Positions 1,064-3,535 of a DNA stretch of 37,548 bases are shown here, in pieces. A model generated the notes under the pieces. The model ran no database searches, was not told the origin of the DNA, and saw only the letters and a program-made list of their open reading frames with translations. The stretch is from the IMG/VR virus record IMGVR_UViG_2636416131_000002. The stretch is one strand, 5' to 3'. How positions within the stretch are numbered: position 1 is the first letter of the stretch; the number at the start of each line of letters is the position of its first letter. The translations under genes were made by a program, and so were the position numbers. Origin of the DNA: a virus. Its lineage: Duplodnaviria; Heunggongvirae; Uroviricota; Caudoviricetes.

Positions 1064-3535
1064 TTAAGAATCAGCCTGACTCGGGATCAGTTTTTGCCAG
1101 ATAACTGAAACGTATTTTGCCTGGTAACGGGCGTCATCAAGTGCATTATGGCGCTCACCTTCGAATGGAATAGCCGTTCTGGCATCGAAGTCTATGGCTT
1201 TCCCCAGCTCAACGATTGTGCGTACATCGCGATCGTTGTAGTAACGCCACGGGCAGGGGATCCCCTGCCGTTCGTATGAACGGCGCAAAATCGTGTTGTC
1301 GAAGTTGGCTCCATTTCCCCAAACCTGAACAAAAAATTCACCGGAGTTTTCGTCGATAAATTCCCGCAATTGTAACAGTGCATCATCTAACGGGATTTCA
1401 TCGGTCATAATGGCAGATTGCGCTTCGCGTGATTGCTTAAGCCACCATTTAATGGTGTCCCGATCAATGACTCCGCCAGCAGTTTCCAGATCGATAGTCT
1501 TACTAAATTCCGGTCCCATATCTCCGGTTTGCGGATCGAAAAATATTGCACCTATTGAGATGATCGGGGCATCAGGATTTTTTCCCATGGTTTCAAGGTC
1601 GATCATTAGATGGTCACACGTCCTGCTGGTGGATGTGATTTCGTGATGACCGTTCACCTTAATTGGGTGATCTGCCGTCTCGCCAGTTTCATTATCGCTA
1701 TTGTGATGCTGATTGCCGCCAGTGTTCTCCTTGTGTGGATGTTCAGCGCCTTCCATTTCCTCCGGATCATCTTCCTGAACTTCAACCTGATACTCTTCAT
1801 CGAATGTTTCTTGGTATGTTGCGTCGCCCATCACCGCGCCACAATCAGGGCAGTTGCCGCCGCCGGTCTGACCGCAGGCGGTGCAGGCTTTTTCCACTTC
1901 CTGTTGCGCCACTGGTTCAGGCTGTTTCGTTTCTGGCTCGTTTTGTAACGCATTTGGACTGTTTTGTTCCGCTTTTTGGTAGTTCCGTTCCGATTCATGC
2001 TGGTTCTGGTTCACAGAATCGCGGGTCTGGATCCCCTTAACCCATTTCGGATCATTCGGGTCACTAATCCCTTCAACAAATTCACCACGTGATGCAGCAA
2101 GCAACTTATCGGCGTCAGGCTGGCTGATATTGGCTGCCTGCATAATTTTGTTTACTTCGTCAGCGGTAACTTTTATCGGCTCTGGTTGTTCTGAATCTTC
2201 AGCGGTATCTACATTTTGCGGTAAGCCCGTGTATGTGCCATTTTTTCGGGCAAAATATTCTTCTTTTGTGATTTCAGTGGCGCCAGCAGCCAGTGCCTTA
2301 TCCAGACCAGAAAGTTTGTTTGCGCGACCGTATTTTTCTCCGTCCTTATCTGCGAAGAGGAAATAGAACGGCCCCTCACGCTCTACAGATGGTTCAGCTT
2401 CCGGCGCGGTTTCATTTTTTGGGATATCAGATACCTCAGTTTCCACTGCATCAGTTTGTGTTTCTGATGACTGGAGAACATCAACAGTGCCCAGGTCTGT
2501 TTCTTCATTCTCAAACACGCCCTTTGTCGTCAGGTATTCGCAGATATATTTGTTCAGTGCTACGGGATCTTTGTGAATGTCGATCGGACGCTCACGGACA
2601 AGGCCAAAAATAGTTTGGCGGTCGTAGCGAAGGGCATCAGGCTGTTTGCGCATTGATGCCGAGATACGCTTCCAGTCTTCGCGGTCGTTGTCGATAACTT
2701 CTTTTTTTGCCCAGCGATGGATGCTGCCGTCAATGTTTCCGGCATCCACATCACCAGGCCAGAGAGCGTAGGCCAGTTCGTCATCCAGTGTTTTCCATGT
2801 CTGCTTGTATTCGCGATGAATGGCAGCAATGACCGGGCTGATTTTTCCTGTTGAATTTTCAGTGTACTGTTGATTGGCTCTGGCGCGGGCGAGATCAACA
2901 ACAGACGTGTATTTTCCGGTTTCCTTGCGTTCACCTTCGCGACGTTTTTTCCAGATGCGCATCTCTGCCTGAATTTCGGGCCATTTAGCACCAGGAATAC
3001 ATTTATGCTTAACCCACCCAATGGCGTGCAACTTAAGCTCCGGATACATGGCGTTAACTTCTGGCATTTTCATCAACGCTTCAACGATATGTCCGTCGAA
3101 TGTTGCCATGTCTTCCTGCAACAATTCCTGTGCGCTAATAACCATATCAACGGTGATGTTTTCACATGTGTCGAACTTAACCATGACAGCGTTCTGTACT
3201 TCAGGGGCCAGCTTGTCAAAAGTGACGTTCATCGGATCGGATTCAGTCTCAACCGGGACAAAAGAAGCAGACTCCTCATCCCAGCGGTTTTCCTGCATAT
3301 ATTCAGCATCCCATGAATCGAGGGCAGGGCGGGGTATGCCAGGTTTATCCTCGCAGACAATAAATTTATAAGCGCAGTCCTGAGCAGCCGGATAATGTTC
3401 CAGGAACTGCCAGTGAAATTTTGCTCGAGCACGGCGTTCGTCGCCAGCTTCAATGGCTGTGGCTACAGCCACAGCGCCTTCTTCCCTTGTTGCCAGTTCG
3501 TCAGGAATAGCGGCGCAAATAAAGACTTTACTCAT
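1064..3535 (-). CDS. Prophage exonuclease, 823 aa: long acidic N-terminal region with a CxxC-x14-CxxC zinc ribbon plus C-terminal DnaQ-like DEDDh 3'-5' exonuclease domain
   Basis: C-terminus carries the DEDDh motifs ([29 protein letters not shown]). Zinc ribbon is [16 protein letters not shown]. GAGG ribosome-binding site upstream of the ATG at 3535. Sits where exo/recE lies in lambdoid phages. Confidence 0.8.
   Translation of the reverse strand: [823 protein letters not shown]

What the first reader, a model, noticed from the sequence alone, without database searches (positions are those of the whole stretch)
1064..3535. 823-aa exonuclease with a long acidic N-terminal region, a zinc ribbon and a DEDDh nuclease domain, without a visible annealase partner
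The exo position of a lambdoid early-left operon normally holds a compact exonuclease next to a single-strand annealing protein. Here one 823-aa protein carries about 590 residues of acidic, low-complexity sequence with a CxxC-x14-CxxC ribbon, then a DnaQ-like 3'-5' exonuclease. A middle segment ([31 protein letters not shown]) resembles what I recall of the RecE non-catalytic region, which would make it a RecE-like scaffold with a different nuclease fold. The next genes downstream are ydfD and dicB, not a recombinase.
Basis: partly seen in the sequence, partly recalled or inferred. Interest (0 to 1): 0.55.

Follow-up and report, generated by a model that had tools for sequence, protein, structure and literature searches.

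The report
RecE-like prophage protein with DexA-type exonuclease
This is the intact form of the E. coli prophage gene ydfE: a very common but never characterised phage protein that keeps the mysterious front half of the recombination nuclease RecE, carries a different, opposite-polarity exonuclease at its end, and works without the usual partner protein.

Summary
The 823-aa ORF at 1064-3535 (-) is real, intact and under purifying selection. Residues about 245-627 are homologous to the non-catalytic part of Rac RecE. The homology stops where RecE's PD-(D/E)XK nuclease begins. There the protein carries an Rv2179c/T4-DexA-type DEDDh domain with all five catalytic residues. No annealase lies beside it in the window, in 80 close relatives or in 32 more distant ones.

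Details need correcting:
- The first 345 residues are confidently folded domains (Pfam YdfE_N and YdfE_C), not low-complexity sequence.
- The zinc ribbon is CxxC-x7-CxxC, not x14.
- dicB and ydfD lie upstream; xis lies downstream.

The gene is not new. An identical protein is annotated in RefSeq. At least 80% of the gene is present in 3537 of 5426 complete E. coli genomes. It has its own PHROG. It is the nuclease of the published "Tritos" class of lambdoid recombination modules (nuclease, no annealase, no anti-RecBCD).

What I add is that the N-terminal scaffold carries swappable payloads:
- PD-(D/E)XK nuclease, followed by RecT in 42 of 42 loci;
- DEDDh exonuclease, followed by RecT in 0 of 32 loci;
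- a Rad52-like annealase domain in proteins annotated as "exodeoxyribonuclease VIII".

Function is inferred, not shown. Interest is moderate to low.

The parts
1064..3535 (-). Whole CDS, 823 aa plus stop. It is the intact homologue of the K-12 Qin pseudogene ydfE and is named 'exonuclease' or '3'-5' exonuclease' in RefSeq.
   Evidence: ORF list. 100% identical to WP_000048324.1 in strain AR_0369. End-to-end match to PHROG 2082. K-12-like strains keep nt 1-767, then IS2. Overall dN/dS is 0.19-0.25.
3546..3549 (-). GAGG Shine-Dalgarno-like motif, 10 nt before the ATG.
   Evidence: Upstream sequence printed.
2921..3535 (-). Residues 1-205, module A (Pfam YdfE_N). It comprises a small alpha/beta domain (about 1-100) and a helical domain (about 105-205).
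2501..2803 (-). Residues 245-345, module B (Pfam YdfE_C). This helical domain is shared with RecE (about 278-350) and is the most widespread part of the scaffold.
   Evidence: pLDDT of about 81-92. 25% identity to RecE 278-351, pairwise E 1.6e-6. Found in most representatives whatever the payload. dN/dS is 0.12-0.15.
1625..2500 (-). Residues 346-637, an acidic linker (net charge -37, 26% hydrophobic) that holds conserved islands.
   Evidence: Composition. dN/dS is about 0.3, looser than in the domains.
2216..2380 (-). Residues 386-440, a conserved island ([45 protein letters not shown]). It occurs in module-A proteins whatever their payload.
   Evidence: Module table. dN/dS is 0.04-0.07 despite high dS.
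1655..2140 (-). Residues 466-627, a segment nearly co-linear with Rac RecE 446-592. It includes the motif [19 protein letters not shown]. The homology ends at the nuclease junction.
   Evidence: BLASTP. 86% DNA identity to recE over gene nt 1420-1867 (H49), which points to a recent mosaic exchange.
1841..1885 (-). Residues 551-565, the putative zinc ribbon CTAC-x7-CPDC.
   Evidence: Regex on the translation. Shared with RecE. Absent from the other DEDDh-type relatives aligned, so it is a lineage-specific feature.
1064..1624 (-). Residues 638-823, an Rv2179c-like / T4-DexA-like DEDDh 3'-5' exonuclease domain. Catalytic residues are D646, E648, D746, H796 and D801.
   Evidence: PF16473, E 2.4e-67. 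T4 DexA structures 8KEL/8KEN, E 1.5e-6 (identity of 8KEL from PMC12153337). Alignment with DexA and relatives. dN/dS is 0.09-0.33.
740..991 (-). Excisionase (DUF1233), the next gene downstream. No annealase lies between it and the exonuclease gene.
   Evidence: Pfam, E 1.6e-31. Annotation of identical loci.
3629..4005 (-). ydfD (3629-3820) and dicB (3817-4005), directly upstream in the same operon.
   Evidence: ORFs. RefSeq annotation transferred from L004.
4180..4231 (-). DicF sRNA, further upstream in the same leftward operon.
   Evidence: Rfam RF00039, 76.7 bits against a gathering score of 48.

Best explanation
The gene is the last DNA-metabolism gene of the leftward early operon of a Qin/Tritos-type lambdoid prophage. 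The gene order is cI, ydfA-C, DicF, dicB, ydfD, this gene, xis, int.

The protein is a domain-swapped relative of RecE with four parts:
- a folded N-terminal scaffold (YdfE_N plus YdfE_C);
- an acidic tether with short conserved islands and a zinc ribbon; one island and the ribbon are shared with Rac RecE;
- a C-terminal DexA/Rv2179c-type DEDDh exonuclease.

I think it works as a stand-alone 3'-to-5' DNA exonuclease. The RecE-type scaffold and tether would bring it to the same, still unknown, target that RecE-type proteins use, most plausibly the ends of linear replicating phage DNA. It is not half of an exonuclease-annealase pair. The phage also lacks Gam. So strand exchange would be left to host RecBCD and RecA acting at the phage's Chi sites. 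Trimming 3' single-stranded tails to near-blunt ends would create the entry sites that RecBCD needs.

Shown: the architecture, the catalytic residues, purifying selection, payload swapping on the scaffold, and the strict absence of a partner.
Inferred: DNA rather than RNA as substrate, the polarity, targeting by the scaffold, and the link to RecBCD.
For: - Architecture.
- The five DEDDh residues are conserved against T4 DexA, a 3'-5' DNase (PMC12153337).
- All folded modules are under purifying selection, with dN/dS of 0.05-0.33. In 80 viral loci, 64 ORFs are intact at 823 aa and 9 more read 828 aa. At least 80% of the gene is present in 3537 of 5426 complete E. coli genomes. It also occurs in isolated phages HannyBb, Tritos, PhiR42_1 and mEp460.
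- There is a strict dichotomy. PD-(D/E)XK-type genes are followed by recT in 42 of 42 loci. DEDDh-type genes are followed by xis/int in 32 of 32 loci, and recT follows in 0 of 32.
- No RecT, Bet, Exo or Gam homologue occurs in 80 close loci or in the window. No annealase family appears among the upstream same-strand ORFs.
- Phage Tritos carries a 99.1% identical gene in the same context. It is the published prototype of a nuclease-only, Gam-less, Chi-rich Rec-module class, which its authors link to RecBCD-assisted growth (PMC12315714).
- The window has 6 Chi sites against 1.37 expected, 4 of them on the + strand.
Against: - No biochemical or genetic data exist for this protein. Searches found no functional study of ydfE.
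- The Pfam family is named after an exoribonuclease, so RNA cannot be excluded.
- PMC12315714 notes that 3'-5' DnaQ-type exonucleases usually inhibit homologous recombination. Its authors do not count DnaQ-type genes that sit next to int as Rec-module members unless they are contiguous with other Rec genes.
- The Chi density of the window, 6 in 37.5 kb, is no higher than I recall for the E. coli chromosome (my knowledge). It is therefore weak support.
- The N-terminal model has no informative fold match, so 'targeting' is a deduction from payload swapping only.
- The loci used for the 42/42 and 32/32 counts are related phages, not independent events.
Confidence: 0.5

Rival explanations
1. Competitor-DNA or host-DNA nuclease of the DexA/EcD (HREX) kind. 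The DEDDh domain would degrade host DNA for nucleotide scavenging. Alternatively it would degrade the modified DNA of superinfecting T-even-like phages, so the prophage protein would be an exclusion or defence function.
For: - The only solved relatives by sequence are T4 DexA and its mutant.
- PMC12153337 reports that an E. coli DexA homologue, EcD, degrades 5hmC DNA and protects against T4. It also reports that DexA homologues are most common in Escherichia.
- Loci of this gene often carry defence-like morons between cI and the gene, for example AbiH.
Against: - EcD is a different protein. Its cloning primers give MIDTET... at the start and ...TIPETY at the end, so it starts at the exonuclease motif. 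The forward primer has no match in the window.
- The two residues that the paper ties to 5hmC recognition, W152 and D169, align with Y766 and A780 here.
- The gene sits in the early-left operon behind the repressor-controlled promoter, so it should be silent in a lysogen (inference from position).
- PADLOC gives only a generic DEDDh hit, E 1.8e-5.
- This reading does not explain the RecE-type scaffold.
Confidence: 0.2
2. RNA exonuclease. The domain would act as an Rv2179c/RNase T-like 3'-5' exoribonuclease. It might trim or turn over transcripts of the long leftward operon, which also yields DicF, or degrade small RNAs or nanoRNAs.
For: - The best Pfam family is named '3'-5' exoribonuclease Rv2179c-like'. 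There is also a weak RNase_T hit, E 4e-4.
- Some sources name relatives '3'-5' exoribonuclease'.
- DicF lies in the same operon.
Against: - The alternative payloads on the same scaffold are all DNA-recombination proteins.
- The gene occupies the slot that recE-recT hold in related phages.
- The closest solved relative is a DNase.
- Family names are inherited from one member and say nothing about substrate here.
Confidence: 0.12
3. Decaying remnant. The gene would be a RecE derivative that lost its nuclease and partner by illegitimate recombination, and it would persist only as prophage junk.
For: - The K-12 copy is a pseudogene cut by IS2.
- Many database entries are partial.
- The segmental dS values, 0.02 to 1.2, show a mosaic history.
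Against: - dN/dS is 0.05-0.33 in every folded module.
- The catalytic residues are intact.
- The full-length ORF is kept in thousands of genomes and in plaque-forming phages.
- DEDDh-type fusions also exist on the other N-terminal module type (PF06630, as in RecE) in other genera, at 42-100% identity to P0228.
Confidence: 0.03

Closest known systems
RecE (exodeoxyribonuclease VIII) of the Rac prophage
   Same: [quoted passage not shown]
- It is a large, acidic multi-part protein.
- It has a homologous YdfE_C-like helical domain, 25% identical.
- It has a near co-linear linker, 70% identical over about 150 aa, including the [10 protein letters not shown] motif and the CxxC-x7-CxxC ribbon.
- A 2023 review states that the N-terminal part of RecE has unknown function (PMC11611040).
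   Different: - The N-terminal PF06630 domain is replaced by YdfE_N.
- The PD-(D/E)XK 5'-3' nuclease (PF12684) is replaced by a DEDDh domain of opposite expected polarity.
- There is no recT downstream.
- The protein scores 281 bits against the 1269-bit cut-off of the RecE equivalog model.
T4 DexA (PDB 8KEL) and its E. coli homologue EcD ('HREX', PMC12153337)
   Same: The DEDDh fold family is the same and all five catalytic residues align, at 27% identity to DexA over the domain. DexA is a 3'-5' DNase that acts in host-DNA scavenging and in double-strand-break processing during intron homing, according to that paper's abstract.
   Different: - DexA and EcD are small proteins of a single domain. 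Here the domain is the last quarter of an 823-aa protein.
- DexA-specific loops are absent.
- The residues that the paper ties to 5hmC recognition are not conserved: Y766 for W152 and A780 for D169.
'Tritos'-class Rec module and DnaQ-like nucleases of lambdoid phages (Genome Res 2025, PMC12315714)
   Same: Phage Tritos carries this gene at 99.1% identity in the same gene order. The paper lists that class as nuclease +, annealase -, SSB -, anti-RecBCD -, with 7-21 top-strand Chi sites. It also notes DnaQ-like 3'-5' nucleases in or near Rec modules, often next to int.
   Different: The text I could read gives no domain analysis of this protein, and its supplementary tables are not held. So I cannot tell whether the authors class the Tritos nuclease as RecE-type or DnaQ-type. 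The window is a prophage with IS insertions, not a free phage.
Rv2179c of Mycobacterium tuberculosis, namesake of PF16473
   Same: The Pfam family is the same, with a full-length domain match on positions 2-177 of 177.
   Different: Rv2179c is a small cellular exoribonuclease (from the family description and my own knowledge). No scaffold or phage context applies to it. No Rv2179c chain reached E of 1 or better in the PDB sequence search.
Scaffold-annealase fusions named 'exodeoxyribonuclease VIII' in Salmonella, Enterobacter and Klebsiella prophages (for example P0132, P0279)
   Same: They have the same YdfE_N plus YdfE_C scaffold (30-50% identity), the same 386-440 island and the same operon position.
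   Different: The payload is a domain of about 270 aa with a Rad52/Mgm101/Sak-like fold plus a long helical tail, not a nuclease. It is followed by a Sipho_Gp157 gene.

Membership tests
RecE / exodeoxyribonuclease VIII (NCBIfam NF007259; Pfam PF06630 + PF12684) | Whole-protein score above the equivalog cut-off of 1269 bits | tested here: not met
   281.3 bits. Only residues 246-623 match, on profile positions 271-600 of 877.
RecE / exodeoxyribonuclease VIII | N-terminal Exonuc_VIII domain (PF06630) | tested here: not met
   No hit at E of 1 or better. Rac RecE hits it at 6e-98.
RecE / exodeoxyribonuclease VIII | C-terminal PD-(D/E)XK nuclease domain (PF12684/DUF3799) | tested here: not met
   No hit. 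The BLASTP alignment to RecE ends at RecE residue 592. RecE's own domain is at 615-850.
RecE / exodeoxyribonuclease VIII | Homologous non-catalytic middle region | tested here: met
   Residues 262-627 align with RecE 278-592, E 3e-63. Identity is 70% over 474-622.
RecE / exodeoxyribonuclease VIII | Translationally coupled recT directly downstream | tested here: not met
   Downstream is xis. RecT follows in 42 of 42 PD-(D/E)XK-type loci and in 0 of 32 DEDDh-type loci.
DEDDh exonucleases, Rv2179c-like / DexA-like (PF16473) | Domain score above the Pfam gathering threshold | tested here: met
   226.5 bits against 27, positions 2-177 of 177.
DEDDh exonucleases, Rv2179c-like / DexA-like (PF16473) | The five catalytic residues D, E, D, H, D | tested here: met
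   D646, E648, D746, H796 and D801 align with the invariant columns shared with T4 DexA.
DEDDh exonucleases, Rv2179c-like / DexA-like (PF16473) | Mg-dependent 3'-5' exonuclease activity and the substrate (DNA or RNA) | not testable with these tools
   Needs enzyme assays.
HREX / EcD-type 5hmC-DNA-specific defence exonuclease (PMC12153337) | Conserved 5hmC-recognition residues (DexA W152 and D169) | tested here: not met
   They align with Y766 and A780. Another aromatic residue and a nearby Asp (D782) exist, so this is weak negative evidence.
HREX / EcD-type 5hmC-DNA-specific defence exonuclease (PMC12153337) | Protection against T4 and selective cleavage of modified DNA | not testable with these tools
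   Needs plating and nuclease assays.
YdfE-type scaffold proteins (Pfam PF27430 YdfE_N + PF27432 YdfE_C; PHROG 2082) | Both scaffold domains present | tested here: met
   Both families are precomputed on proteins 96-100% identical over residues 1-345 (for example P0004 and P0008). Their names appear. The local Pfam copy lacks these models, so they were not scored directly on this sequence.
YdfE-type scaffold proteins (Pfam PF27430 YdfE_N + PF27432 YdfE_C; PHROG 2082) | End-to-end match to the phage family profile | tested here: met
   PHROG 2082, residues 1-822 on profile positions 1-822 of 823, 1830 bits.
'Tritos'-class Rec module (PMC12315714) | Nuclease present; annealase, SSB and anti-RecBCD absent from the early-left operon | tested here: met
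   No RecT, Bet or Gam by phmmer or tblastn. PGAP annotation of the identical prophage lists none. The gene order is the same as in Tritos. Abc2-, GamL- and MuGam-type inhibitors were not searched for specifically.
'Tritos'-class Rec module (PMC12315714) | Abundant top-strand Chi sites (four or more) | tested here: inconclusive
   There are 4 on the + strand and 2 on the - strand in 37.5 kb, against 1.37 expected from shuffles. The window is not the whole prophage. I did not compare this density with that of the host chromosome.

The most novel reading that the evidence does not exclude
The YdfE/RecE N-terminal region, the 'domain of unknown function' of RecE, would be a payload-independent delivery module. 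It would dock alternative DNA-end enzymes at one common target in the infected cell. The alternatives are a 5'-3' nuclease with RecT, a 3'-5' DEDDh nuclease alone, or a Rad52-like annealase. The conserved linker peptides, such as [10 protein letters not shown] and the 386-440 island, would be its docking motifs.

On this reading the DEDDh version defines a third, annealase-free way for lambdoid phages to handle their DNA ends, one that feeds host RecBCD-Chi recombination. More than a thousand 'exodeoxyribonuclease VIII' annotations in Enterobacterales would then be scaffold-annealase fusions.
Probability: 0.35. Interest if true: 0.6.

Novelty: already known. Interest (0 to 1): 0.35.

Why it matters
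This protein sits in roughly two thirds of complete E. coli genomes, often in several copies. It has escaped study, and one plausible reason is that the K-12 copy (ydfE) is cut by an IS element.

It is a natural domain-swap experiment on RecE. The non-catalytic half is kept. That half improves linear-linear recombineering but has no known function (PMC11611040). The nuclease is exchanged for one of opposite polarity, and RecT is dropped.

This makes two questions testable. What does the RecE/YdfE scaffold bind? How do Gam-less, annealase-less lambdoid phages process their DNA ends? The practical value lies in better annotation (nuclease type; annealase fusions mislabelled as exonuclease VIII) and possibly in new recombineering parts. 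It is not a new kind of system.

Tried and rejected
- PADLOC gave only a generic CRISPR-associated DEDDh model, E 1.8e-5. I rejected membership of any known defence system.
- I asked whether EcD of PMC12153337 is this protein. It is not. The cloning primers give different termini, and the forward primer does not occur in the window.
- The search for related loci with the DEDDh-type alignment returned only relatives at least 90% identical. I re-ran it with P0228 to obtain diversity.
- The first homologue search was swamped by partial E. coli entries. Diversity came from the 50%-clustered library and from searching with a 40%-identical relative.
- One literature search was wasted because 'RecE' matched 'receptor' at word start.
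- The supplementary tables of PMC12315714 are not held. I therefore could not see how its authors classify the Tritos nuclease or which proteins they call RecE-2.
- I considered and rejected a pseudogene or fusion artefact, on the selection and conservation evidence.
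Full report
**1. The observation**

The window holds an ATG-initiated ORF of 823 codons at 1064-3535 on the minus strand. A GAGG motif lies 10 nt before the start. The product is acidic, with pI 4.64.

Pfam places a full-length Rv2179c-like DEDDh exonuclease domain at residues 642-813, E 2.4e-67. The only solved structures found by sequence are 8KEL and 8KEN, E 1.5e-6. The depositors' paper identifies them as T4 exonuclease DexA and its S87A/D90A mutant (PMC12153337). 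An alignment with DexA and more distant relatives shows D646, E648, D746, H796 and D801 in the invariant catalytic columns.

- BLASTP aligns residues 262-627 with Rac RecE 278-592 at 40% identity, E 3e-63.
- The last 150 residues of that stretch are 70% identical to RecE. At the DNA level they are 86% identical to recE (H49).
- The alignment stops where RecE's PD-(D/E)XK domain (PF12684, residues 615-850) begins.
- The NCBIfam RecE equivalog model matches only residues 246-623 and reaches 281 of the required 1269 bits.

Three details of the finding are wrong.
- The zinc ribbon is C551xxC-x7-C562xxC, not x14.
- The N-terminal 590 residues are not low-complexity sequence. An AlphaFold2 model of residues 1-352, built on 33 diverse homologues, has mean pLDDT 83.5. 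It shows an alpha/beta domain (about 1-100), a helical domain (about 105-205), a disordered stretch (205-237) and a second helical domain (245-340). Only residues 346-637 form an acidic linker, with net charge -37 and 26% hydrophobic residues.
- dicB and ydfD lie upstream of the gene, not downstream. The downstream neighbour is an excisionase at 740-991.

**2. What the gene is**

The gene is very common.
- At least 80% of it is found in 3537 of 5426 complete E. coli genomes, with a median of two places per genome and up to ten.
- An identical protein, WP_000048324.1, is annotated 'exonuclease'.
- It occurs at 99-100% identity in the isolated phages HannyBb, PhiR42_1 and Tritos. It occurs at 87-92% identity in mEp460-type and PPompW phages.
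- It matches PHROG 2082 end to end.

K-12-like chromosomes keep only the first 767 nt, followed by IS2, between ydfD and the remnant of intQ. This truncated copy is the Qin pseudogene ydfE (gene name from my own knowledge). Newer Pfam families named YdfE_N (PF27430) and YdfE_C (PF27432) are precomputed on the near-identical database proteins.

The window itself is a Qin-type prophage. The gene order on the minus strand is repressor, ydfA, DicF (Rfam), dicB, ydfD, exonuclease, xis. An IS fragment sits where the integrase should be.

The gene is under purifying selection in every folded part. dN/dS is 0.05-0.08 in YdfE_N, 0.12-0.15 in YdfE_C, 0.04-0.07 in the 386-440 island and 0.09-0.33 in the DEDDh domain. 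The linker is looser, at about 0.3. dS varies between segments from 0.02 to 1.2, which indicates a mosaic history.

**3. The missing partner**

- No RecT, Bet, lambda Exo or Gam homologue is detectable in the window or in 80 loci from viral contigs that carry the gene with up to 8 kb of upstream DNA.
- The same-strand upstream ORFs of 140 aa or more in those loci hit repressor, AbiH, Rha, methyltransferase and similar families. None hits an annealase family.
- A second set of 80 loci was built around a RecE-N-terminus/DEDDh protein of other enterobacteria (P0228, 42-100% identity). It gives a clean dichotomy among the 74 loci with enough downstream DNA. PD-(D/E)XK-type scaffold genes are followed within -37 to +14 nt by a RecT-family gene in 42 of 42 loci. 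DEDDh-type genes are followed by excisionase and integrase in 32 of 32 loci, with no RecT in the locus. Ten of the downstream ORFs were checked against Pfam.

These loci are related phages rather than independent events, but the rule has no exception.

**4. The scaffold carries alternative payloads**

The N-terminal 345 residues have only 168 representatives among 1.84 billion clustered proteins. Among the 64 representatives of 480 aa or more, the front module is either YdfE_N or the RecE-type PF06630. The YdfE_C-like module is shared by most of them.

The C-terminal payloads are:
- DEDDh in 10 representatives;
- PD-(D/E)XK in 15;
- RecT in 1;
- a group of 18 with a C-terminus of about 270 aa that Pfam does not recognise.

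**5. How it most likely works**

Shown:
- the architecture;
- an intact DEDDh active site homologous to a known 3'-5' DNase;
- purifying selection;
- position as the last early-left gene before xis;
- no annealase and no Gam.

Inferred: the protein is a stand-alone 3'-5' DNA exonuclease that the RecE-type scaffold and tether deliver to linear phage DNA ends.

A published survey of lambdoid recombination modules lists phage Tritos as the prototype of a small class with a nuclease but no annealase, SSB or anti-RecBCD protein, and with 7-21 top-strand Chi sites. It links Gam-less, Chi-rich phages to RecBCD-assisted growth. It also remarks that DnaQ-like 3'-5' nucleases occur in or near these modules, although such enzymes usually inhibit recombination (PMC12315714). 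Tritos carries this gene at 99.1% identity in the same context. The window has 6 Chi sites against 1.37 expected, 4 of them on the + strand.

One mechanism consistent with all of this is that the enzyme trims 3' single-stranded tails to near-blunt ends, where RecBCD can enter. This is my own inference. It rests on the established requirement of RecBCD for blunt or nearly blunt ends. I give the whole explanation a confidence of 0.5. The architecture is near certain, DNase activity is likely, and the RecBCD link is speculative.

**6. Rivals**

- **DexA/EcD-like function (confidence 0.2).** A role in scavenging, or in defence against modified-DNA phages, is suggested by PMC12153337. EcD, however, is a different protein that starts at the exonuclease motif. 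The residues proposed there for 5hmC recognition align with Y766 and A780 here. PADLOC gives only a generic DEDDh hit.
- **RNase function (confidence 0.12).** The family name suggests it, and sequence cannot exclude it. It fits the recombination context poorly.
- **Decaying remnant (confidence 0.03).** The selection and conservation data contradict it.

**7. Comparison with known families, and novelty**

- The protein is not a member of the RecE family as defined by its equivalog model, its N-terminal domain, its nuclease domain and its RecT partner. All four were tested and not met. It does share RecE's middle region.
- It is a member of the Rv2179c-like/DexA-like DEDDh family by domain score and catalytic residues.
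- It is a member of the catalogued YdfE scaffold family.
- It corresponds to the nuclease of the published Tritos-type module.

I found no functional study of ydfE or of this protein. A 2023 review still calls the RecE N-terminal region a domain of unknown function (PMC11611040).

The object is therefore already known as a sequence family and as a module type, but it is functionally uncharacterised.

The useful additions here are:
- the precise domain map;
- the strict payload-partner rule;
- the likely annealase nature of the 'nuclease-less RecE-like' proteins. These may be the 'RecE-2' proteins whose role PMC12315714 leaves open. I could not verify that identity.

I score interest at 0.35.

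Noticed in passing
[not shown]
   Followed up: partly
Loci L087-L166: RecE-type (PD-(D/E)XK) scaffold genes are followed by a translationally coupled RecT gene in 42 of 42 loci. DEDDh-type scaffold genes are followed by xis/int in 32 of 32 loci.
   Followed up: yes
Protein P0232 (DEDDh-type representative): It has Lys in place of the catalytic Glu (E648 position) and Ala in place of the second Asp (D746 position). It may be a catalytically dead variant of the fusion.
   Followed up: no
window 4180-4231 (-): DicF antisense sRNA (Rfam RF00039, 76.7 bits) lies upstream of dicB-ydfD-exonuclease in the same leftward operon.
   Followed up: partly
window 14872-15264 (+) and 17775-18161 (+): Two cspA-type thermoregulator 5' leaders (Rfam RF01766, 161 and 112 bits) lie in the late region of the prophage. 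They correspond to the cspB and cspI genes annotated in the matching genome.
   Followed up: no
window 22-642 (+) and 8074-9408 (+): Two insertion-sequence pieces are present. One is an IS3-family (IS2-like) transposase C-terminal fragment that sits where the integrase lies in intact relatives. The other is an ISEsa1-type transposase ORF inside the replication region. The prophage is therefore probably defective.
   Followed up: partly
window 1625, 12324, 12381, 16948 (+); 12914, 12966 (-): Six Chi octamers (GCTGGTGG) occur against 1.37 expected from shuffles. Four are on the strand of rightward transcription, and one of these lies inside the exonuclease gene at the linker/DEDDh junction.
   Followed up: partly
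window 4492-5109 (-): A 205-aa ORF lies between ydfA and DicF. It has a Cys-rich stretch and no Pfam or PADLOC hit. It recurs in 14 of the 80 related loci and is annotated as hypothetical in phage HannyBb. RefSeq instead calls only a ydfB fragment there.
   Followed up: no
Loci L005-L084, upstream of the exonuclease gene: The space between the repressor and the exonuclease gene is variable. In some relatives it holds defence-like or accessory genes, such as AbiH, a DUF4209 protein, methyltransferases and a lipocalin.
   Followed up: no
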